From contig SOJN01000046.1 in the NCBI GenBank assembly GCA_004376575.1, positions 48,709 through 112,708 of the forward strand: a stretch of 64,000 bases of DNA. The letters are read 5' to 3'. The DNA comes from a candidate division TA06 bacterium (lineage in GTDB: Bacteria > Hydrothermota > DG-26 > E44-bin18). This document shows positions 32,503 through 54,958 of the stretch, piece by piece. Positions within the stretch are counted from its first letter, which is position 1; each line of letters opens with the position of its first letter. The position numbers were made by a program, and so were the translations under genes. Below the pieces are notes generated by a model, which did not search any database, was not told the DNA's origin, and saw nothing but the letters and a program-made list of their open reading frames with translations.

Positions 32503-37632
<5,130 letters not shown>

Positions 37633-37717
37633 TTCACACCCTCACCTGCCAGGATTTTTCGCTCACCGATTGGCTTCAGGCGATCTCGAACGGTTCATCA
37701 GAGGCAACGGTGTCGTT

Positions 37718-39094
37718 CTACGCGCTTGCATACTCCTTTGCGTTTATCCCGTACCTTTTTATCTTCTCGTGCAAATTCTGTCTTGCAATCTGAGCCATGC
37801 GCGCTGACTTGGCAACGTTCCCACCGTTCGCTTTGAGAATATCTACTATGTACTCTTTCTCAAAGGTTTCCTTAGCTTTTTTGAAGGGGAACTTGATGGC
37901 TGAGAGTCCTGCCTCAGGAGTCGGTGATGTGATGGATGTGGGGAGGTCGCCCACCTGTATGATGTCGTCAGAGCACAATGTCACCGCATGCTCGATGGCA
38001 TTTTCAAGCTCTCTTACATTTCCCGGCCAATCATGCCTCAAGAACCATTCGACTACTTCGGGAGTAAAACCTCTTACCGTCTTCTTCTGCTCTCTGCAGA
38101 ATTTCTGCAGGAAGTGATCCGCCAGGAGTGGTATGTCTTCTCTTCTCTCTCTCAGGGCAGGGAGAAAGATTCTTACCACATTAAGTCTGTAGAAGAGGTC
38201 CTTCCTGAAGGTTCCATTAGATAGCTCTTTGTTCAGATCAATGTTAGAGGATGCCATTATTCTGACATCAACTGTGATTTCCTTTATGCCACCAACAGGT
38301 ATGAAAGCACTTTCTTCAATGACGCGAAGAAGTTTTACCTGAGTGGAAAGGGGGGCTGTGTTTATTTCGTCCAGGAATATTGTTCCCCCCTCAGCTGCTT
38401 CGAAAAGGCCCTGCTTCGTTCTATCAGCACCCGTGAATGCACCCTTGGTATGCCCGAATAGTTCACTTTCCAGGAGAGTCTCCGGCACCCCACCACAGTT
38501 TATTGCAATGAATCTCTTATTCTTTCTCGGACTGGAGTAGTGTATCGTCTTCGCAACTACTTCCTTTCCTGTTCCACTTTCGCCTTGTATGAGAACTGTG
38601 GTCTTGGTTGGAGCAATCTTCCGTAAGAGTGCGTAAAGATCACGCATCTTCCTGCTTTTCCCAATGATGCGGCTGAAGGAGAACGTGTCCTCGAGCTGTT
38701 TGTGCAGATACCTGTTCTCATCCACCAGACTCTTTCTTTCAATTGCCCTCTCCACGACCAGCTTGACGCTTTCCATACCTATGGGCTTTCTGAGAAAGTC
38801 GTAGGCACCCAGTTTCATCGCCTCTACGGCAGTTTCGACAGTGGCATATCCTGTCAGCATTATGACCGAAGGATCAAACCTGTTTCTTCTTATTTCTTTT
38901 AGTACATCCAGTCCAGTGATGTAGGGCATTTTCAGGTCTAACAGAACAACATCATACTTAACGCGCTCGAGGGATTTGATGGCTGCTCTCCCATCTTCCG
39001 CCTTTGAAATGTGATATCTGTCTTTCAGAATGTCTTCCAGAGCATCTCTTATGCCCGGCTCATCGTCCACTATCAGAACGCTAGCCTTTTGCAT
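37718..39094 (-). CDS. NtrC-family sigma-54-dependent response regulator (REC-AAA+-HTH)
   Basis: [14 protein letters not shown] receiver, [21 protein letters not shown], and a Fis HTH. Start taken at [11 protein letters not shown] (ATG 39092-39094). The track start is 39178. Confidence 0.85.
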
Positions 39095-39177
39095 TACTAC
39101 CCCCCCGGGCCGCCTCAGAAGGTTAGGAACCAGACGCGGGGTTTTTCTGGGGAACCCTGCGAAACCCCTTGGCCGCA

Positions 39178-39378
39178 TCAGCTTGTGAGCGACGGGGCGT
39201 GCTCAACGAGCTTTGCGAAGAATGAAACAAGCCATGCGCAGTTCTTCCCCCCCCAATTGTCTTTTATGTAACTCTCGGTGTAGTCGAGATCCTTTGGGGA
39301 GGCCTGTGCAATTCTGGACACTACGTTGGCGATCTGCTCCAGCTCATACGTAGTGAGGACTGGATATTTCAGATTCAT
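39178..39378 (-). CDS. small protein, paralog A of a triplicated 59-66-aa family
   Basis: MNLKYPVLTTYELEQIANVVSRIAQ...WLVSFFAKLVEHA with a GGGAGGTGA RBS. About 60% identical to paralog B. Confidence 0.5.
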   Translation of the reverse strand: MNLKYPVLTTYELEQIANVVSRIAQASPKDLDYTESYIKDNWGGKNCAWLVSFFAKLVEHAPSLTS

Positions 39379-39459
39379 ACGTCACCTCCCTATGGTCTTT
39401 TAACACCAATTAGACAATCGCGGGATTTCTGGGGATTACCCCGCCAACCTTTGACTCTC

Positions 39460-39660
39460 CTAAGGATTGACCTTGGAGGCATGTTCCACGAGCCTGCCGA
39501 AGAAAGAAACCACCCAATCCGGGTTACTGCCAGGCCAACAATCTTTGAGATAGCTCTCCGTATCGGTGATTTCCTTATGGCTGGCTTTGGATAGCCTGTC
39601 GTAGATGTTGGCCATTTGTTCCAGCTCGTATGTGGTCAGGACCGGCCTCGGTCTCGTCAT
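39460..39660 (-). CDS. small protein, paralog B of the triplicated family
   Basis: MTRPRPVLTTYELEQMANIYDRLSKAS...WVVSFFGRLVEHA with AGGAGG 8 nt upstream of the ATG. Confidence 0.5.
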   Translation of the reverse strand: MTRPRPVLTTYELEQMANIYDRLSKASHKEITDTESYLKDCWPGSNPDWVVSFFGRLVEHASKVNP

Positions 39661-39717
39661 TCTCAGCACCTCCTTCCTTTCATGGTTTCCCACTTATTTA
39701 TAATTCTTTCTTTGATT

Positions 39718-40167
39718 TCACTGAGCATCCCCCATTGACCATTCGTCGCTCAAGAGGACAAGGTCTTTGCGACCGTCCAGAACTAAGGCATAGGCACCCA
39801 TAACATCTCTGCCCAGAAGACTCGGTATTTGCTTCTTATACTTCTCCGGCAACTGATCATGCTTGTTGACCAGCACCTCATCAATATCCTGCTGGTGCTC
39901 ACCGCCCTCAGTTATGAAGGAGAAGGTCAGGTCGTTCAGTTTGTATATCTGTGTAAACCCGCCTATTCCCAACATATCCGCATTCATCTTCTCCATTTGG
40001 GCGAAGTCTATGCCCAGCTTGGCCACGTCTCGCTCACTGATGACCGTTCTTGGCGTTCCCGTATCTATCAAGAATGCAATTCTCCGGGGGTGTCCACCGT
40101 TTCTTCTGAGGACGATAATGTCTAGAAAAGGAGAACCGTCTGAGTTGAAGTAACCTATTATTTTCAA
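39718..40167 (-). CDS. retropepsin-like clan AA aspartic protease
   Basis: Catalytic D-T-G-T in FLIDTGTPRTVIS. About 150 aa. A second glycine-rich flap region is present. The ATGA start overlaps the upstream small gene. Confidence 0.7.
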   Translation of the reverse strand: MKIIGYFNSDGSPFLDIIVLRRNGGHPRRIAFLIDTGTPRTVISERDVAKLGIDFAQMEKMNADMLGIGGFTQIYKLNDLTFSFITEGGEHQQDIDEVLVNKHDQLPEKYKKQIPSLLGRDVMGAYALVLDGRKDLVLLSDEWSMGDAQ

Positions 40168-40436
40168 AGTATCACCGTTGCCTTCGTACTCGTCAAATAT
40201 TCTGTAGAGACAAGTTTAGAAACTCTTGGAAGCCTTCTGTCCACCAGTCTCATCAGCTCTGAAATATCCCGGTGTGAACCGACCACCTTCTTGTTGAATA
40301 CTGCAACAAACTGGTCGGGATAGCGTCGCGCAAGCGCAGAATAATTCTCAGCCAGCCACTTGGGATCGTCTGTGCTCGCTGCCGTCAGCTCATCCAGCAG
40401 AGCCCCGGGAATCTTGGTTGTAGTTGCTTTTGCCAT
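40164..40436 (-). CDS. small DUF5678-like protein translationally coupled to the retropepsin
   Basis: AGGAGG RBS 5 nt upstream. The motif ...YPDQFVAVFNKKVVGSHRDISELMRLV... resembles DUF5678 as recalled. Confidence 0.45.
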   Translation of the reverse strand: MAKATTTKIPGALLDELTAASTDDPKWLAENYSALARRYPDQFVAVFNKKVVGSHRDISELMRLVDRRLPRVSKLVSTEYLTSTKATVIL

Positions 40437-40470
40437 CTCAACCTCCTGCTTTGATTTCTTCCTTGACGCT

Positions 40471-40650
40471 CTAAAGATCTTCAAGCAGCCTGCAAAAGAA
40501 GGTGATGTACAGTTTTTGATTGGAAGCAGAACTTTTTTGTACGATGTAGCGGCGAGTAGATTCTATTTCATCGGGAGTTGCCTCTTTCAGTCGATCAAGG
40601 GTCCACTTAGTGGTTTCCAGTTCATGTATTGTAACCACCGGTTTGGACAT
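40471..40650 (-). CDS. small protein, divergent paralog C of the A/B family
   Basis: MSKPVVTIHELETTKWTLDRLKEATPDEIESTRRYIV...LYITFFCRLLEDL has the same pattern (V.T.HELE ... FF.RL.E) and a GGAGA RBS. Confidence 0.4.
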   Translation of the reverse strand: MSKPVVTIHELETTKWTLDRLKEATPDEIESTRRYIVQKSSASNQKLYITFFCRLLEDL

Positions 40651-40667
40651 CGGAGAATCTCCTAATA

Positions 40668-42422
40668 CTAGATCTCTTGTTTGGACTCGTCCTGCATCGG
40701 GGGTAGCATGACCGTCACAGTTGTGCCTACTCCTGCCGCACTCTCTACCGAGATGCTTCCTCCGTGCTCGTCTACGATCCTTTTTGATATTGCCAGGCCC
40801 AGACCAGTTCCCGTTTCTTTGGTGGTGTAGAACGAGTCGAATATCTTGCCCAGCTCTTCCATCTTTATTCCGCACCCTGTGTCTTTGAAAGATACCAGAA
40901 CTCGTTCATCGCCCAACCTGTCCACACTCGATCCAGTGGAGACTGTCAGGGTTCCCCCCTCGCTCATGGCCTGTGCGGCGTTTGTTATCAGATTCAGAAA
41001 AACCTGCTGTAGTCTGTTTTTGTCTGCAAGTACACGCGGTAGATCGTTCTTCAGCGACCTTTCAAGTACTACGTTGTGGTTCTTGAGGTGGTTTTCTGTC
41101 AACAGGATGGACTCCCCTATAATTTGGGTTATGCTTTGAGGCTTGAACTCTGATCTGGACATGCGAGCAAACTCGAGTATCCCCTGTACTAGCTTTGATA
41201 TTCTTTCCACCTGTTTGTCAATAACATCGATGGAGTTGTATATCGGATCGCGGGGGTCTATCTTGCTCAATAGAATGTCTGTTCTGGCCATTATGGTCAT
41301 CAGGGGATTGTTTATTTCGTGTGCAATGGACCCAGCCAACTCGCCCACCGTGGCAAGCTTCTCAGACTGGAGCAACTGTGGGTAGGCCACAGCCATGGTC
41401 AGTGTGTTTTCCTCCAGCCTTGAGTACTTTTGTTTCAACATGTGATGGGACTGAGCCTTGGAAATAGCCAGTCCTACTCCGTCAGCGAAGGCCCTGAGTA
41501 GTGGCAAGTTATCCTCGCTGAAAGAATCCTCCTTCTTGTTGCTTTCTAGAAGTATGGCCCCAATTTTTCTGTTGTTCCTGCTGATTGGCACACATATGGC
41601 AGATTTGATTCCAGAATGGGAAACTGCGGATTCTGTCTCCTCGACACTGGGAGAGATCAAGAATGGCGATCCACATTCAATGACCCGTTCAGATATGTCA
41701 AAGTCTTTCGTTTGTTCCTCAATCAATTTCTTATAGTAACCATATCCCGCTCTAAGCGTGATGCTCTTGCCGGCTGCGTCAAAAGTCACGATTGCGGCTC
41801 CATCAACGTCTGGTATCAATTCGACCGCTTTCTTAATAACGAGCTCAAACATCTGCTGAGGATCCATGGTAGAGTTGATAGCGTTTGTTACGGATATGAG
41901 GCTTTCTGCCTCTTCGGACTTCTGCTGCATTCTATCGTAGTCGAGTTTTGCAATGAACGCTTCGCCAAACACTGAAATGAACTCCTGAAGCTTGGATCTT
42001 TCGTCGCTTCCGAGAAAGCCTTCCTTGATCCCGAGCACCATCCCTTTCTGCATGTTCGTTTTGCCAACTGGGAACAAGACTACATTGCAGGACTCTGGTA
42101 CCTTTGAACCCTTAGGAAGCAGGCAGTTCAGCTCACCTGCCGTCAGTGAAACGGCCTGGCTGGGTTCTGCAGAAAGCTTGAGAGTTGTCCTTATCCGACC
42201 TGGTTCCAACTTGGCAAGTTCCTTCTTGTGTTCCAGGAAGGGGGGACGGTAGGACTCTGCCATGAGACTGGGTACACCGAGGTTGTCCTTGTCAAAAAAG
42301 AGAAGGGCAGCATCCAGAGGAGGTACGCTACCACTGGTCAGATGTTCGACGATTACGTGAGGAATGCGAAATGTGGTCTTCAGATGTCCCGTCTTACTTT
42401 CTGATGCGGCCACGTGCCCCAC
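40668..42422 (-). CDS. soluble sensor histidine kinase (unknown N-domain - GAF - HisKA - HATPase_c)
   Basis: H-box HEINNPL, N-box NLITNAAQA, G1 box DTGCGI, G2 box GTGLGLAI. No TM segments. Confidence 0.85.
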   Translation of the reverse strand: MGHVAASESKTGHLKTTFRIPHVIVEHLTSGSVPPLDAALLFFDKDNLGVPSLMAESYRPPFLEHKKELAKLEPGRIRTTLKLSAEPSQAVSLTAGELNCLLPKGSKVPESCNVVLFPVGKTNMQKGMVLGIKEGFLGSDERSKLQEFISVFGEAFIAKLDYDRMQQKSEEAESLISVTNAINSTMDPQQMFELVIKKAVELIPDVDGAAIVTFDAAGKSITLRAGYGYYKKLIEEQTKDFDISERVIECGSPFLISPSVEETESAVSHSGIKSAICVPISRNNRKIGAILLESNKKEDSFSEDNLPLLRAFADGVGLAISKAQSHHMLKQKYSRLEENTLTMAVAYPQLLQSEKLATVGELAGSIAHEINNPLMTIMARTDILLSKIDPRDPIYNSIDVIDKQVERISKLVQGILEFARMSRSEFKPQSITQIIGESILLTENHLKNHNVVLERSLKNDLPRVLADKNRLQQVFLNLITNAAQAMSEGGTLTVSTGSSVDRLGDERVLVSFKDTGCGIKMEELGKIFDSFYTTKETGTGLGLAISKRIVDEHGGSISVESAAGVGTTVTVMLPPMQDESKQEI

Positions 42423-42425
42423 TCC

Positions 42426-42848
42426 CTAATTCCTCTCTGCGTTTCTTGCGGCCACTATTTCCCTCTTGGCTTGTGGCGAACACAGGTGTCTTGCAACTAT
42501 CCACCTGATGATTTCGAAGTTTAGCGGTTTTCGCGCATAGAAGACTATACCCAACTTTCTACATGCAATCTCCAGGTCATCTGAATAGTCCGAAGTTGTG
42601 ACAACGATGGGGAATGTAGAATCGAGTTCCCTTATCGTGGAGATAAGCTCTAACCCCCTCATGTCTTTCAGTTGCGTATCAGCAATAAGTATTGACAGAG
42701 CGCTGTTTCTGAATGCGACGAGAAGGTCTGAACCATTCTCAGCAGTAATGACTGAGAACCCCAGTCTTTCAAATGCCCTTCTCAATTTGGTGAGCCACTT
42801 TGAGTCGGCATCTGTGATTCCTATAGTCTTATCCATCGCGTCAACCAT
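42426..42848 (-). CDS. single-domain response regulator receiver (CheY-like)
   Basis: IGITDAD, phospho-acceptor Asp in ILIADTQL, and the conserved T (VVTTS) and K (YARKP). Confidence 0.65.
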   Translation of the reverse strand: MVDAMDKTIGITDADSKWLTKLRRAFERLGFSVITAENGSDLLVAFRNSALSILIADTQLKDMRGLELISTIRELDSTFPIVVTTSDYSDDLEIACRKLGIVFYARKPLNFEIIRWIVARHLCSPQAKREIVAARNAERN

Positions 42849-42883
42849 TTACCACCCTGACTAGGGTGGCACGAAACGTATCA

Positions 42884-42899
42884 TGCAACAATTGTGCCA
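42884..42899 (-). promoter_or_regulatory. sigma-54 (RpoN) promoter, TGGCAC-N5-TTGCA
   Basis: The reverse complement reads ctcTGGCACaattgTTGCAtg, a perfect -24/-12 consensus with correct spacing, about 36 nt upstream of the receiver gene. Confidence 0.55.
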
Positions 42900-43129
42900 G
42901 AGGACGGATCTCTGATGCGGTTTGCTAAAGTTATGATAGATTTGGACTTACGGAGCACACACAGAGCGTCTCGGGGGGGGTGGTTGCAGCTCTGTGTGTC
43001 ACCTTGACACGGAGTCAACCTTCATTTCAGGGAGATACCCAAGGATGGGGACGTTCGGAAGACGGGTCAAAGGTGCCTTGCTTGTGTCAGTCTGGTACTA
43101 TGGGGAAGTACTACGGGGCATTCGTCGGG

Positions 43130-44485
43130 CTATGCTGAGATGCCGTACTTTTTTATCTTTCTGTAAATGGTCTTTCTGCCCACGCCGAGCATGTCAGCAG
43201 CCCTGCCCTTGTTTCCTCCGCACTCACTCAGGGCCTGTTCTATGAGCTGCCTCTCCATCTCTCCAATAGTAGGCATGGCACCAGGCTTGGAGAGCCTCGT
43301 GTTGGATCTGCGTTGCAGAAGCTTTGATGGAAGGTTTTGTGGCATCAGGACCTCGTCACAGTTGAGGGCGAAGGCTCTTTCCACGACATTTTCCAGTTCT
43401 CGGACATTGCCCGGCCAATCGTAGTATGCGAATGTTTCCATGCAGGCGGGAGCTACAGACTTGACCCTTCTGTTGTATTTTTCGTTAAAAATCTTGATGA
43501 AATGGTGCACCAGTATGGGTATGTCGCCTTTTCTTTCGCGCAGGGGAGGTATCTTTATGTGTACAACACTCAGTCTGTAGTAGAGGTCATTTCTCAGGGC
43601 CTTTTGTGCCAGCGCTTCGTCAACGTCGGCGTTGGTCGCGGCGATCAGCCTCACATCTGTGGGAATAGTCTGGGTACTTCCTACTGGCCTGATCTCTTGG
43701 TCCTGCAATACGCGTAGAAGCTTCACCTGGAGGAAACCGGGCATCTCACCAATTTCGTCCAAGAACAAGGTTCCACTGTCGGCAGCCCTGAAGAGGCCGA
43801 CGTTATCGCTTATTGCTCCGGTGAAAGATCCTTTCTTGTGACCAAACAGTTCACTCTCCAGAAGGTGGTGGGGGATTGCACCGCAGTTGACCGGTATGAA
43901 CGCCTTTTGCGCTCTCTTGCTGTTGAAGTGAATTGCTCTGGCCACCAGTTCCTTGCCTGTTCCACTCTCACCTTCAATAAAAATAGGACTGTCGTTTGCG
44001 GATATTCTGTGGATTATTTCGTTTATTTCACGCATCTTTGGGGATATGCTCACCAGGACGCCGAACTCCTTCTGTTCATCGAGACGTTTCTTGAGGAATG
44101 TATTCTCCTCCTTCAAGCTCCTTTTTTCCATTATGTTGGTGATCACGTGATTTATTTCCTCCATGCGTGTTGGCTTGGTCAGATAGTCAAAGGCTCCCAG
44201 CTTCAGGGCTGAAACTGCAGAGCTCACAGTTGCAAAGGCGGTTAGCATCACAGCCTCGATACTGTCATCTATGCTTCTTATTGATCTCAGTAGCTCAATC
44301 CCGTCCATCTTCGGCATCTTCAGGTCAATTATGGCAATGTCGTACTGGGAATTTCGGATCTTCTCGAGTGCTTCAGGGCCATCGGCCGCAGTTTCCACCT
44401 TGTGTCCATATGGGGTCAATCCGTCCCTCAGAGCGTCTCTCACATCCTCTTCATCGTCGACTATAAGTACCCTTGCGCTCCCCAT
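43130..44485 (-). CDS. NtrC-family sigma-54-dependent response regulator
   Basis: VLIVDDEEDVRDAL receiver, [21 protein letters not shown], and a C-terminal HTH. Confidence 0.85.
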   Translation of the reverse strand: MGSARVLIVDDEEDVRDALRDGLTPYGHKVETAADGPEALEKIRNSQYDIAIIDLKMPKMDGIELLRSIRSIDDSIEAVMLTAFATVSSAVSALKLGAFDYLTKPTRMEEINHVITNIMEKRSLKEENTFLKKRLDEQKEFGVLVSISPKMREINEIIHRISANDSPIFIEGESGTGKELVARAIHFNSKRAQKAFIPVNCGAIPHHLLESELFGHKKGSFTGAISDNVGLFRAADSGTLFLDEIGEMPGFLQVKLLRVLQDQEIRPVGSTQTIPTDVRLIAATNADVDEALAQKALRNDLYYRLSVVHIKIPPLRERKGDIPILVHHFIKIFNEKYNRRVKSVAPACMETFAYYDWPGNVRELENVVERAFALNCDEVLMPQNLPSKLLQRRSNTRLSKPGAMPTIGEMERQLIEQALSECGGNKGRAADMLGVGRKTIYRKIKKYGISA

Positions 44486-44732
44486 TTAGACCCTTTCGGA
44501 CAGACTGGCCCGCCCTTTAAGATTGCGCCGGCAGGCTCATTTCAGAAGAATTGGCCCAGTTTGGCTTTCCCTCCGGCCAGTCAAGGGTAGAATGACTTAT
44601 AGCGGAAAGGCGGGTGTGTGTCAAGGGAAATCTTGGTTCTTGGGTCACTTTTTGGGACACAGGTCACAATTGTCTCGGTTGGGGCCAAAACGGCCTTCCG
44701 TCGTATACTGCATACTGCACGTGAATTTGGTC

Positions 44733-44761
44733 TTGACAACACCGTGGTATTTCCCTATAGT
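44733..44761 (+). promoter_or_regulatory. sigma-70-type promoter (TTGACA-17-TATAGT)
   Basis: Consensus boxes about 75 nt upstream of the sigma54 activator ATG at 44837. Confidence 0.4.
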
Positions 44762-44836
44762 TATCGGTGGGTAGGGCAGGGACCGGGGTGTGCACGCAGC
44801 GTTCGTAATCTTCAGTGCAGGACTGGAGCCGACATT

Positions 44837-45820
44837 ATGGAAGGTGCAGCCCACCCATTTGAGTTTTCCGGGCTGATCAGTAAAGACGGCAAGATGCGGG
44901 CCGTCTTTAACCTGATTGAGAAGGTTGCCTCCACTAACTCGCCAGTACTGGTGCTGGGGGAGACCGGAAGCGGCAAGGAACTTGTGGCTAGGGCCATACA
45001 TGAGAGGAGCCTCAGAGCGGTCGCTCCTTTCATCGCCATAAACTGCGCGGTGCTGTCCGAAACTCTCCTTGAGAGTGAACTCTTCGGGCACGAAAGGGGT
45101 GCGTACACAGGTGCAGTATCCAGAAAACATGGGCTGTTCGAAGTCGCAGATAAGGGAACTATTTTTCTGGATGAGATTGGGGACATGCCTCAAAAGGTTC
45201 AAGCGAAACTCCTCAGGGCTCTTGAAAGCAAGTCGTTCCGAAGGGTGGGAGGGACCAGAGATGTGAAGGTTGATGTGAGGTTGCTTTCCGCATCCGCGAT
45301 GGACCTGGCAGTAGCAATCGACAATCGTGTTTTCAGGAAAGATCTTTATTATCGACTAAGCACTGTCGTAATAGAAATACCACCTCTACGGGACAGAAGG
45401 GATGACATACCCGTGTTGGTTGAGTTCTTTCTCAAGAGGCTGGAAAGGGCGGCGGGCGGAAGGAGAGTGCGCATCACAGGTGCGGCTGTGGATGCTTGTT
45501 GCACCTTTCACTGGCCTGGTAATGTGAGGGAGCTGGAGCATGTGATAGAAAGGTCTTACGTACTCTCCGAGGGAGATGTGATAGATATTCTTGATCTGCC
45601 CGAAAGGTTAAGAGAGATCAGCAAAGCACCATCCGCCGACGCACTTGTTCCGCTCGAGGAAATAGAGAGGCGCTACATAGCCAGGGTCCTGAAGGAAACC
45701 GGTGGGAATAGGACGAGGGCGGCCCGGATTCTGGGAATCGACAGGAAGACTCTCTACAGAAAGGTGAGAATGGGGCAGATTAACCCAACTGGCTCTCCGC
45801 AGGGGCAAAAAACCACATAG
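44837..45820 (+). CDS. sigma-54 activator lacking a regulatory domain (PspF/HrpS-like AAA+ + HTH)
   Basis: [15 protein letters not shown], the GAFTGA motif in its variant form GAYTGA, and a C-terminal Fis-type HTH. The start chosen is [10 protein letters not shown]. The track N-extension from 44618 is probably non-coding. Confidence 0.75.
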
Positions 45821-45902: not shown

Positions 45903-45918
45903 TGGCATGTTTTTTGCT
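45903..45918 (+). promoter_or_regulatory. sigma-54 promoter TGGCAT-N5-TTGCT
   Basis: ttGGcatgttttttGCt has correct GG-N10-GC spacing, about 135 nt upstream of receiver paralog 1. Confidence 0.45.
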
Positions 45919-46053
45919 CAGTCTTAGTAGTGACACGGAAAACATGCAGTCTGAACCGGGGTCTGCGACATACTGTGGCATCTTTGCCCATTGTTATTTG
46001 AGTTTTAACCCGAGTCATTGTGCGACCCTGGTCAGTGCGTTGAGAGAAAGGCA

Positions 46054-46431
46054 ATGGCAAGAGTACTGATAGTTGAACAGGACGTCCTTTTTGGGAAGAT
46101 GCTAAGAGACCTGACTTCTGCCCAGGGGATAGAACCCGATTTGTGTCAAGGACTCGGAGAAGCGATTCTTAAGCTGCGGGAACACCACTACCAAGCTCTG
46201 GTTGTCGACATAGATCAGGAGAGTCTTGATCCTGCCGACGTGATTGGCGTCTTGAAGGCAGTCTCTCCCGGGGTGTCAGTTATTGCGATCACGGATGAGA
46301 ATCGGCTGGAAATGGAGAAACACGTCAGGGAACAAGGAATTTTCTATTACCTTGTGAAGCCGGTTGAGGAAAGAGAATACGCTGAAGCCGTCAATAGGGC
46401 TCTTCAATATTCGGATTCCTTCGCAGTTTGA
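46054..46431 (+). CDS. single-domain receiver protein, paralog 1
   Basis: MARVLIVEQD, Asp in ALVVDIDQ, T in AITDE, K in YYLVKP. 125 aa. About 50% identical to 49487..49864. Confidence 0.65.
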   Translation: MARVLIVEQDVLFGKMLRDLTSAQGIEPDLCQGLGEAILKLREHHYQALVVDIDQESLDPADVIGVLKAVSPGVSVIAITDENRLEMEKHVREQGIFYYLVKPVEEREYAEAVNRALQYSDSFAV

Positions 46432-49316: not shown

Positions 49317-49433
49317 CGTTACGGGTGCCCCCCAATCATGACAGCGACCGCAACACGTTGGGCCGCTTTTCGAGTTTTGTAAGTTCTTTATGACACGTAT
49401 GTTACATGTCCATTACTTGTGTCCTGCAAAAGA

Positions 49434-49448
49434 GGCACGGAAATTGCA
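49434..49448 (+). promoter_or_regulatory. sigma-54 promoter GGCACG-N4-TTGCA
   Basis: agaGGCACGgaaaTTGCAgc is a perfect -24/-12 match, 39 nt upstream of the GTG start. Confidence 0.55.
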
Positions 49449-49486
49449 GCGCCTTGTTTGGCGCAGGTCAAACAAGGAGGGAAGCC

Positions 49487-49864
49487 GTGAGCGCTGTGTT
49501 GATTGTTGAGCATGACCCTGCCTACCGCAGGAAGTTTTTCGATCTTGCCTCTGAGTACACCGAGGAGACAGATTTCTGTACGCGAACCTGGCAGGCCATA
49601 GAAATGGTCCAGACCAAGAACTACTCATCCGTGGTGGTTGATCTGGACCAGGAGGGGATAGATCCCGTTGATGCGATCGAGGTGATCAAGGGGATCTCTC
49701 CGGGCACCGCAATCATAGCAGTGACCGAAAGGAACCGCCTGGAACTGGAGAAGACCGTAAGGAAAGAAGGTATCTTTTACTACATGGTCAAGCCTCTGGA
49801 CGATGATGAGTTCAGAGAAGCAATAGAGCGAGCAGTAGATTGCTACGGCGAGGCCTGGGAGTAG
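49487..49864 (+). CDS. single-domain receiver protein, paralog 2
   Basis: GTG start 6 nt after AGGAGG. VLIVEHD, VVVDLDQ, AVTE, YYMVKP. 125 aa. Confidence 0.65.
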   Translation: MSAVLIVEHDPAYRRKFFDLASEYTEETDFCTRTWQAIEMVQTKNYSSVVVDLDQEGIDPVDAIEVIKGISPGTAIIAVTERNRLELEKTVRKEGIFYYMVKPLDDDEFREAIERAVDCYGEAWE

Positions 49865-49880: not shown

Positions 49881-50512
49881 GCGATAAGCTTCGCATTTCG
49901 CCAGAGTTTCAAGCCATCTCCTGATAGAGGCTTCCCTCTGTGATCAAGGGTCTCAACTAGTTAGGAGAGGCATGGACTCTGGCACTCTTTTTGCTCAACA
50001 TTTCGTTGGGAAAGGTTCATAGGTGACGATATGGCAAACACAAACAACAAAGCTTCAAAGAATGCACCGTTTCTTTTCATGGTTGATGATGGCGATGCAT
50101 GTGCCAGCGGGCTGGTGGCTTACGGTAGGCCTCTAAGGACGTCTCTCGGTTCTCAGGAAGTTGACTCCGGGGTTGCATCCTGTGCCAGTTCCATGATGAA
50201 GTGGATGGCCATATACTCGGAAGATGGGAGCGAGCCTGAACAACATGCCCTTGTTTGGCACACAGCCTGCTTCGCTTTCTAGAGCGCTTTTCCCGCCAGT
50301 TTAACAGGGTGCTATCGTTTACCCCTATGCGGTACTGCAGAAGTAGATTCTGTCGATTGACAGAGCATCTCGTTCATCAAGGATGGGACAATTGCTAACA
50401 ACATTTTGTTACATGTGTCATTCAACTCTGGCCCAATCCGGAGCGGCAAAATGTTACAGAGCGCGAACAGAAGCTACAGAGGGCTTTTTCAGGTATTCTT
50501 TGTGGTCACATA

Positions 50513-50528
50513 TGGCACACTTATTGAT
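50513..50528 (+). promoter_or_regulatory. sigma-54-like promoter TGGCAC-N5-TTGAT (non-canonical -12)
   Basis: atatGGCACacttaTTGATac lies 70 nt upstream of ATG 50599. The same variant occurs at 54943. Confidence 0.4.
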
Positions 50529-54942: not shown

Positions 54943-54958
54943 TGGCACAGTTATTGAT
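54943..54958 (+). promoter_or_regulatory. sigma-54-like promoter TGGCAC-N5-TTGAT
   Basis: tcTGGCACagttaTTGATgc lies 210 nt upstream of ATG 55168. Confidence 0.4.

What the first reader, a model, noticed from the sequence alone, without database searches (positions are those of the whole stretch)
39178..40650. Triplicated family of 59-66-aa proteins (A, B, C) with no recognisable function
Three small genes, each with a good Shine-Dalgarno, encode paralogs sharing (P)V(L/V)T(T/I)(Y/H)ELE(Q/T)...(E/D)(S/Y)(Y)I...W......(S/T)FF..L(V/L)E(H/D). A and B are about 60% identical and exactly 66 aa each; C is divergent at 59 aa. They sit between a histidine kinase and a sigma54 regulator, interleaved with a protease pair. 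This is a typical position for a partner-switching, adaptor or anti-activator protein. I cannot place them in any known family from memory.
Basis: seen in the sequence. Interest (0 to 1): 0.6.

Follow-up and report, generated by a model that had tools for sequence, protein, structure and literature searches.

The report
Orphan three-helix proteins in sigma54 operon
Three real, selected small genes encode a previously undescribed three-helix protein family found only inside one sigma-54 two-component operon of a few uncultured TA06 bacteria; they most likely fine-tune that signalling pathway, but this has not been shown.

Summary
A (39178-39378), B (39460-39660) and C (40471-40650), all on the minus strand, are paralogs: A/B 59% identical, A/C 31% (E 2e-11). 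Each has a Shine-Dalgarno sequence.

They are real genes. Orthologs of all three groups occur in seven lineages of candidate division TA06, with no frame disruption and dN/dS of 0.04-0.26.

The family is an orphan. It has no Pfam, NCBIfam, PADLOC, PHROG or PDB match. An exhaustive HMM search of 1.84 billion proteins found only its own members. AlphaFold gives a confident three-helix bundle (pLDDT 86 and 93) with no significant fold match in solved structures or predicted viral structures.

Every copy sits in the same sigma-54-driven operon: receiver, GAF histidine kinase, C, DUF5678, retropepsin-like protease, B (one or two copies), A, response-regulator EBP, giant kinase-EBP. A more distant relative has the same operon with the kinase directly abutting the EBP, so the five-gene block is a lineage-specific addition. 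The DUF5678/protease pair also occurs alone elsewhere.

Best guess (about 0.4): cytoplasmic accessory modulators of the kinase/receiver/EBP circuit. Hpt, STAS, a DHp relative, a sigma-54 region I mimic and a RiPP precursor were tested and found no support.

Each A/B copy is followed by a conserved hairpin.

The parts
39178..39378 (-). Small protein A (66 aa), group A of the family. It is the last small gene, immediately upstream of the EBP gene. It is the most conserved group, with an invariant C-terminal FFAKLVEHAPSLTS.
   Evidence: GenBank TET46701.1 'hypothetical protein'
39460..39660 (-). Small protein B (66 aa), group B. This group was duplicated to B1/B2 in L001, L008 and L013, and independently in L023.
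   Evidence: TET46702.1
40471..40650 (-). Small protein C (59 aa), the divergent group C. It lies directly behind the histidine kinase gene (17 nt in the window; overlapping start/stop in L008). It is truncated by a TAG codon relative to its 64-72-aa orthologs.
   Evidence: TET46705.1
39135..39177 (-). Conserved 43-nt element right after the A stop codon. It contains a hairpin, CGCAGGGTT (39153-39161) / AACCCCGCG (39135-39143). Mean identity is 95% across seven lineages, against 62% at third codon positions of A.
39419..39445 (-). Homologous GC-rich hairpin after the B stop codon (GCGGGGT...ATCCCGC), part of the duplicated unit.
39718..40167 (-). Retropepsin-like aspartic protease (149 aa, DTG motif), second gene of an autonomous two-gene cassette that lies between C and B.
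40164..40436 (-). DUF5678 protein (90 aa), first gene of the cassette. Its stop overlaps the protease start.
40668..42422 (-). Cytoplasmic GAF-HisKA-HATPase histidine kinase (584 aa).
42426..42848 (-). Stand-alone receiver protein (140 aa), first gene of the operon.
42884..42899 (-). Perfect sigma-54 promoter match TGGCACAATTGTTGCA, 35 nt upstream of the receiver gene. It is conserved with at most one mismatch at the same place in six related loci, including L017; in L008 that region is not on the contig. No other match with at most one mismatch lies between it and the end of the EBP gene.
37718..39094 (-). Response-regulator sigma-54 enhancer-binding protein (458 aa, GAFTGA). The start is set by its orthologs. 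The longest ORF would begin at 39178, overlapping the A stop.
32503..37632 (-). 1709-aa Ser/Thr kinase - AAA_16 - TPR - GAF - sigma-54 EBP fusion, the last gene of the conserved cluster.

Best explanation
A, B and C are soluble, slightly acidic, cytoplasmic three-helix-bundle proteins. They form a lineage-specific family that was added, as a block, between the histidine kinase gene and its cognate sigma-54 activator gene in one subclade of candidate division TA06. They are transcribed from the operon's own sigma-54 promoter, so they rise together with the kinase and the activator. I propose that they bind signalling proteins of this circuit (kinase DHp/catalytic core, receiver domains, or the AAA+ activator) and tune its output, most simply as a negative or buffering feedback on an auto-activating loop. 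The three anciently separated paralog groups would address different partners: C, coupled to the kinase gene, acting on the kinase, and A, coupled to the EBP gene, acting on the EBP. Shown: gene reality, fold class, operon membership, promoter, accessory status, divergence into three retained groups. Inferred: every binding partner and the sign of the effect.
For: All three groups are under purifying selection (dN/dS 0.04-0.26). Each of A, B and C is retained in all seven lineages as a separate orthologous clade. Group-specific invariant residues sit on helix 1 and the 42-49 loop, while the residues shared by all groups look structural: a T-x-x-E capping box, L13, A26, F53 and L57. AlphaFold models are confident three-helix bundles (pLDDT 86.1 and 92.8). 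The proteins have no signal peptide or membrane segment and a pI of 5.6-6.6. Every family member found lies in the same operon, receiver - GAF kinase - C - DUF5678 - protease - B(n) - A - RR-EBP - kinase/TPR/EBP. This includes the results of an exhaustive search of 1.84e9 proteins and a DNA-level metagenome scan. A sigma-54 promoter is conserved upstream of the receiver gene, with no comparable match inside the block. C is tightly coupled to the kinase gene (17 nt apart, overlapping in L008). A is joined to the EBP gene by an intergenic element more conserved than the coding sequence. The DUF5678/protease cassette exists on its own elsewhere without these genes, so the small genes are not simply part of that cassette. 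Precedents, from general knowledge and from PMC3105312 and PMC10730256: HrpV/HrpG on HrpS, PspA on PspF, Sda on KinA.
Against: No interaction was tested or could be tested here. The tools offer no multimer prediction and return no model coordinates. L017 shows that the kinase-EBP pair works without the small proteins, so they are dispensable accessories. All occurrences trace to one ancestral insertion, so context conservation is one observation, not seven. The block always contains the DUF5678/protease pair, so a link to the protease cannot be separated phylogenetically. There is no similarity to any known kinase inhibitor, receiver phosphatase or EBP anti-activator.
Confidence: 0.4

Rival explanations
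1. The small proteins belong functionally to the DUF5678/retropepsin-like protease cassette, as substrates, inhibitors or adaptors of the protease. The whole five-gene block was acquired together and merely sits in the signalling operon.
For: The small genes and the cassette co-occur in all seven lineages and are absent together from L017. In L008 the kinase, C, DUF5678 and protease genes overlap one another by 1-4 nt. Group A has an invariant C-terminal tail that could be a recognition motif. The protease resembles PADLOC candidate defence component PDC-M08B (E 1e-6).
Against: The cassette occurs alone (49% identical protease, same-length DUF5678) next to PAP2, polyprenyl synthase and MoxR genes, and in another context, with no family member nearby. 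The co-occurrence is a single phylogenetic event. A, B and C have no PADLOC hit.
Confidence: 0.2
2. They are outputs or passengers rather than regulators: small proteins with an unrelated cellular role (for example stress or structural binding proteins) that are simply expressed under this sigma-54 circuit.
For: There is no homology to any signalling module. The block is dispensable for the core kinase-EBP pair. B copy number is fluid, with two independent duplications, as often seen for effector or dosage genes.
Against: They sit between the two signalling genes rather than in a separate target operon. The strict position of C behind the kinase and A before the EBP has been kept despite saturated synonymous divergence. 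A highly conserved element links A to the EBP gene.
Confidence: 0.2
3. They are nucleic-acid-binding autoregulators, ribbon-helix-helix-like or RNA-binding, that recognise the conserved dyad/hairpin placed after each A/B copy and so control read-through or translation of the downstream gene.
For: A basic N-terminal stretch (RPRP, PKR) precedes an extended PV(L/V)T segment and two helices, which is reminiscent of ribbon-helix-helix proteins. A conserved 8-9-bp dyad with compensatory changes follows every A/B gene. The element after A is 95% identical across lineages.
Confidence: 0.1
4. They are ribosomally synthesised peptide precursors matured by the adjacent protease.
For: The genes are tandem paralogous small genes next to a protease.
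Against: Conservation runs along the whole length and is highest at the C-terminus, not in a leader/variable-core pattern. The predicted fold is confident and globular. There are no Nif11/NHLP or other precursor family hits. The operon contains no modification enzyme or exporter.
Confidence: 0.03

Closest known systems
HrpV / HrpG control of the sigma-54 activators HrpR/HrpS (Pseudomonas syringae; PMC3105312, PMC4145663)
   Same: Small cytoplasmic proteins encoded within a sigma-54 regulon that bind an AAA+ enhancer-binding protein (HrpV) or its inhibitor (HrpG) and give feedback on an EBP-driven circuit. Several small partners act in a hierarchy.
   Different: No sequence or detectable fold similarity. 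HrpV (about 115 aa, from memory) is larger. Here binding to an EBP is only inferred from gene position. The activators here are receiver-controlled, whereas HrpRS lack a receiver domain.
Sda and Spo0E-type small helical regulators of phosphorelays (Bacillus; reviewed in PMC10730256, PMC12189002)
   Same: All-helical proteins of 46-85 aa that act by docking on a kinase DHp domain (Sda) or a receiver domain (Spo0E). The size and all-alpha character are the same.
   Different: Those are two-helix hairpins; the family here is a three-helix bundle. There is no Pfam Spo0E-like hit. The conserved T-x-x-E-L-E(Q/T) lies at the N-cap of helix 1 and looks like a structural capping box, not the SQELD catalytic motif. 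No activity was tested.
PspA-PspF and the CpxP/ZraP type of accessory feedback protein
   Same: An accessory helical protein co-induced with its own signalling system and feeding back on it. ZraP and PspA belong to sigma-54 systems.
   Different: PspA is a 222-aa ESCRT-III-like coiled coil. CpxP and ZraP are periplasmic. The proteins here are cytoplasmic, much smaller and unrelated in sequence.

Membership tests
Hpt phosphotransfer domain | Four-helix bundle with an invariant phospho-accepting His on a solvent-exposed helix face | tested here: not met
   Three helices, 59-66 aa. No invariant His: position 11 is Y in most A/B members, and H60 is absent from group C. No Pfam hit at E<=10.
STAS / SpoIIAA anti-sigma-factor antagonist | Alpha/beta fold of about 110 aa with a conserved phosphorylatable Ser/Thr | tested here: not met
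   All-alpha model without strands. No Pfam or NCBIfam hit.
HisKA DHp domain (or a DHp mimic by descent) | Profile similarity to the H-box helix and helix 2 of the DHp hairpin | tested here: not met
   hhalign of the family against 120 DHp regions of this kinase family gave probability 1.4% with 14 columns aligned.
Spo0E-like aspartyl-phosphate phosphatase | Helical hairpin carrying the SQELD motif; match to the Pfam Spo0E-like model | tested here: not met
   No such hit for any of 28 members at E<=10. The motif differs and sits at a helix N-cap. Phosphatase activity cannot be tested with these tools.
Sigma-54 region I (activator-interacting domain) mimic | Sequence similarity to the region I helix (LSTLELQQEL...) | tested here: not met
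No sigma-54 chain appears among the PDB profile hits.
Ribbon-helix-helix DNA-binding proteins | N-terminal beta-strand pairing in a dimer plus two helices; match to one of the Pfam RHH/CopG/ParD models | tested here: inconclusive
RiPP precursor peptides (Nif11 / NHLP leader types) | Conserved leader plus variable core; a maturation enzyme and exporter nearby; match to the TIGR/Pfam leader models | tested here: not met
   No NCBIfam or Pfam hit. The C-terminus is the most conserved part. No modifying enzyme or transporter in the operon.
Small accessory modulators of two-component / EBP signalling (a functional class, not a homologous family) | Direct binding to the kinase, receiver or EBP, with an effect on phosphotransfer or ATPase/transcription output | not testable with these tools
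   Only context is available: same sigma-54 operon, positions next to the kinase and EBP genes, accessory status.
DUF5678 (neighbouring gene 40164-40436) | Score above the Pfam gathering threshold | tested here: met
   30.0 bits against a cut-off of 23.2, E 4.6e-7.
Clan AA retropepsin-like aspartic protease (neighbouring gene 39718-40167) | Pfam Asp_protease_2/RVP above threshold, with the catalytic D-T/S-G motif | tested here: met
   Asp_protease_2 scores 26.7 bits against 24.3, and RVP 25.1 against 20.7. LIDTGTP is present in the sequence.

The most novel reading that the evidence does not exclude
A, B and C are the founding members of a new class of miniature three-helix regulators of bacterial enhancer-binding proteins and their kinases. 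Each paralog would be dedicated to a different partner in a locus that packs four sigma-54 activators. Their dosage relative to the downstream activator would be set by the conserved hairpin/RNA element that follows each copy.
Probability: 0.15. Interest if true: 0.6.

Novelty: new variant of a known kind. Interest (0 to 1): 0.4.

Why it matters
If the proposed role is right, this would be a structurally new solution to a familiar problem: damping or routing an auto-activating sigma-54 two-component circuit. It would also be a clean natural before/after pair, since the same operon exists with the block (the window) and without it (L017), for studying how accessory regulators are grafted onto a signalling pathway. 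In practice the family is confined to a handful of uncultured TA06 genomes, so its general importance is modest. Its main value is as a well-documented orphan small-protein family with a testable hypothesis, plus an associated conserved non-coding element.

Tried and rejected
- **Family libraries.** Pfam, NCBIfam, PADLOC and PHROGs scans of A, B and C found nothing. The only hits were scattered PHROG matches at E>0.1. A per-member Pfam scan of 28 proteins gave only five unrelated single hits.
- **Solved structures by sequence.** The family profile against PDB sequences gave nothing below E 0.9.
- **Wider homolog searches.** The exhaustive representative search found only family members plus low-complexity or repetitive false positives.
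- **DHp homology:** rejected.
- **Sigma-54 region I mimicry:** rejected.
- **E-x-x-(Q/T) phosphatase motif.** I noticed the resemblance to the receiver-phosphatase motifs of HisKA and CheX (from memory). I set it aside because T9-x-x-E12 is a classic helix capping box and there is no supporting homology.
- **Collection scans.** A genome-contig scan with the kinase returned only unrelated kinases. The metagenome scan returned only the same operon type. The viral scan returned nothing.
- **RNA checks.** Rfam found nothing in 37000-45000. Single-sequence folding energies of the intergenic regions are not better than shuffles; the support for the hairpin comes from the alignment instead.
- **Fused-chain structure prediction.** I did not try it as a stand-in for a complex, because the tool returns no coordinates or PAE.

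Full report
**1. What is in the sequence.**
All relevant genes are on the minus strand. In transcription order they are:
- a perfect sigma-54 promoter match, TGGCACAATTGTTGCA (42884-42899);
- a stand-alone receiver (42426-42848);
- a cytoplasmic GAF-HisKA-HATPase kinase (40668-42422);
- C (40471-40650, 59 aa);
- a DUF5678 protein (40164-40436);
- a retropepsin-like aspartic protease (39718-40167);
- B (39460-39660, 66 aa);
- A (39178-39378, 66 aa);
- a receiver-AAA+-HTH_8 sigma-54 activator (37718-39094, 458 aa, with the start set by its orthologs);
- a 1709-aa Ser/Thr-kinase/AAA_16/TPR/GAF/sigma-54-activator fusion (32503-37632).

Domain assignments come and from the precomputed Pfam hits on orthologous contigs. 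Each small gene has a Shine-Dalgarno sequence. A and B are 59% identical. A and C are 31% identical with E 2e-11. The one error is that the interleaved 'protease pair' is one DUF5678 protein plus one protease.

**2. Are they genes?**
A profile search of 5.8 billion proteins found 25 relatives, all 47-86 aa. Looking up their contigs and re-scanning the DNA with a family HMM gave seven distinct lineages: the window, L001, L005, L008, L012, L013 and L014. Each has exactly one C-type copy behind the kinase and two or three A/B-type copies behind the protease, including copies that gene callers had missed.
- No copy is frame-disrupted.
- Nei-Gojobori dN/dS is 0.05-0.19 for A, 0.04-0.13 for B, B1 and B2, and 0.11-0.26 for C. 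Synonymous sites are often saturated.
- A neighbour-joining tree gives three old clades, A, B and C, each present in every lineage.
- B was duplicated in the L001/L008/L013 clade and, independently, in L023.

The window itself comes from a candidate division TA06 metagenome-assembled genome in which the three proteins are annotated 'hypothetical protein'.

**3. What are they?**
Sequence searches found nothing:
- Pfam, NCBIfam, PADLOC and PHROGs;
- a per-member Pfam scan of 28 sequences;
- a profile search of PDB sequences.

An exhaustive HMMER search of 1.84 billion cluster representatives found seven hits. Four are family members, including one divergent C-type protein, P0029. Of the other three, the one retrieved (P0028) is a repetitive protein, and the other two are proteins of more than 1,100 aa with only short multi-stretch matches.

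The proteins are hydrophilic and mildly acidic, with pI 5.6-6.6. Columns invariant across all groups are T9, E12, L13, E14, A26, F53 and L57, with R22 nearly invariant. T9-x-x-E12 is a typical helix capping box, and the others are probably core or salt-bridge positions. Group-specific invariant residues cluster on helix 1 (positions 15-18 and 23-25), in the 42-49 loop and in the C-terminal tail. That is the pattern expected if the paralogs keep one scaffold but recognise different partners.

**4. Context and history.**
Every occurrence of the family is in the same operon. A DNA-level scan of JGI metagenomes found only this operon type, and IMG/VR viral contigs held none.

The sigma-54 promoter upstream of the receiver gene is conserved with at most one mismatch in the window, L001, L005, L012, L013, L014 and L017. 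In L008 that region is not on the contig. No match with at most one mismatch lies between it and the end of the EBP gene. The small genes are therefore most simply co-transcribed with the kinase and the activator, in what looks like a self-activating loop.

L017 is a more distant relative whose kinase is 40% identical. It carries the same skeleton: RR-EBP, receiver, GAF kinase, RR-EBP, giant kinase-EBP. There the kinase gene overlaps the EBP gene directly, and the contig holds no family member even with filters off. The five-gene block C-DUF5678-protease-B-A is thus a lineage-specific addition to a functioning kinase/activator pair.

The DUF5678/protease pair also occurs on its own. One copy has a 49% identical protease and a 90-aa DUF5678 with the same overlap, and lies between PAP2 and polyprenyl-synthase/MoxR genes. 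It comes from the same samples and has the same G+C content as L008. A second, more distant copy lies in another context. Neither has family members nearby. The pair is therefore an autonomous cassette. Its position between C and B is most simply a separate insertion into an older C-B-A array, although joint acquisition cannot be excluded.

**5. Mechanism.**
The evidence supports the following statement: accessory, cytoplasmic protein-binding modules expressed with, and positioned next to, the kinase and the activator. I commit to 'modulators of the kinase/receiver/EBP circuit' at about 0.4. C would act on the kinase and A on the EBP, as suggested by gene coupling (17 nt or overlapping for kinase-C; a highly constrained A-EBP linker).

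Specific mechanistic leads were tested and failed:
- descent from, or mimicry of, the DHp domain (hhalign probability 1.4%);
- mimicry of sigma-54 region I (no better than shuffles);
- Hpt and STAS (wrong fold, no invariant His or Ser).

A ribbon-helix-helix reading has no sequence or fold support, but it cannot be excluded from a monomer model. Rivals are set out with their own refutation tests: partners or substrates of the protease cassette (0.2), passengers or outputs (0.2), nucleic-acid binders acting on the hairpins (0.1) and RiPP precursors (0.03).

**6. A conserved non-coding element.**
Ten to fifteen nucleotides after the stop codon of every A/B-type copy, but not after C, lies a GC-rich hairpin, GCGGGGTT-N7-9-AACCCCGC.
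- On the alignment of 17 copies, 90.8% of cells pair and three pairs show compensatory changes.
- No shuffle out of 500 reaches the observed covariation score, and slid controls fall to 35-60% pairing.
- There is no U-tract, Rfam has no match, and the motif occurs nowhere else in the window.
- The copy after A is part of a 43-nt stretch that is 95% identical across lineages. That compares with 90% at second and 62% at third codon positions of A, and 50% in the middle of the same spacer.
- A GGCC next to the A stop can pair with a GGCC next to the EBP Shine-Dalgarno sequence.

This suggests attenuation, transcript stabilisation or translational coupling between A and the EBP. Its function was not tested.

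**7. Comparison and verdict.**
Functionally, the nearest known things are small helical regulators of signalling proteins: HrpV/HrpG on HrpS (PMC3105312, PMC4145663), Sda and Spo0E in phosphorelays (PMC10730256, PMC12189002), and PspA or ZraP-type feedback proteins. Membership in any of these families is not supported.

The finding is a real orphan family with a narrow distribution and a plausible but unproven regulatory role. I rate it as a new variant of a known kind, with interest 0.4.

Noticed in passing
window 39135-39161 and 39419-39445 (minus strand); L001, L005, L008, L012, L013, L014 after every A/B copy: A conserved GC-rich hairpin (GCGGGGTT-N7-9-AACCCCGC) follows each A/B-type gene but not C. 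It has compensatory changes, no U-tract and no Rfam match. It is duplicated together with the gene.
   Followed up: yes
window 39095-39177 (minus strand): The first 43 nt after the A stop codon are 95% identical in seven lineages, more conserved than second codon positions of A. A GGCC beside the A stop can pair with a GGCC beside the EBP ribosome-binding site, which may mean translational coupling or a regulatory RNA.
   Followed up: partly
window 39718-40436 (minus strand); L019 519-1231, L020 2523-3235, L021 3307-4016: DUF5678 plus a retropepsin-like aspartic protease form an autonomous overlapping two-gene cassette found in unrelated contexts. The protease matches PADLOC candidate defence component PDC-M08B (E 1e-6). 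The function of the pair is unknown, and no paper in the library describes the function of DUF5678.
   Followed up: partly
window 32503-37632 (minus strand): A 1709-aa single polypeptide combines a Ser/Thr protein kinase, an AAA_16 STAND-type NTPase, TPR repeats, GAF and a complete sigma-54 activator (GSFTGA loop, HTH). It is conserved in all related loci, including L017 (1786 aa).
   Followed up: no
window 33219, 38443, 43831 (minus strand) and 45098 (plus strand): Four sigma-54 enhancer-binding proteins with GAFTGA-type loops lie within 13 kb, together with three stand-alone receiver proteins (42426-42848, 46018-46431, 49406-49864).
   Followed up: partly
window 49980-49995 (+), 45903-45918 (+), 50513-50528 (+), 54943-54958 (+): Further exact or one-mismatch sigma-54 promoter matches lie upstream of a receiver gene and of large secreted-type proteins (987 aa with a Laminin_G_3 domain; 687 aa). 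These may be targets of the regulators in this cluster.
   Followed up: no
window 40471-40473 (minus strand): C ends at a TAG where orthologs continue for 5-13 more residues. The closely related P0021 has TGG there and reads on to 86 aa. The window's C is therefore a naturally truncated variant, and the truncated region is poorly conserved.
   Followed up: yes
window 39094-39178 (minus strand): The longest ORF of the EBP (486 aa) starts at 39178, overlapping the A stop. All orthologs are 458 aa, which puts the true start at 39094 ([12 protein letters not shown]) and leaves an 83-nt spacer.
   Followed up: yes
L017 5769-9235: A more distant relative has the same receiver-kinase-EBP-giant-kinase operon and sigma-54 promoter, but the kinase gene overlaps the EBP gene, with no small genes or protease. 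This is a natural 'before' state of the locus.
   Followed up: yes
L023 735-1529; L001, L008, L013: Group B has been tandemly duplicated at least twice independently, while A and C stay single-copy.
   Followed up: partly
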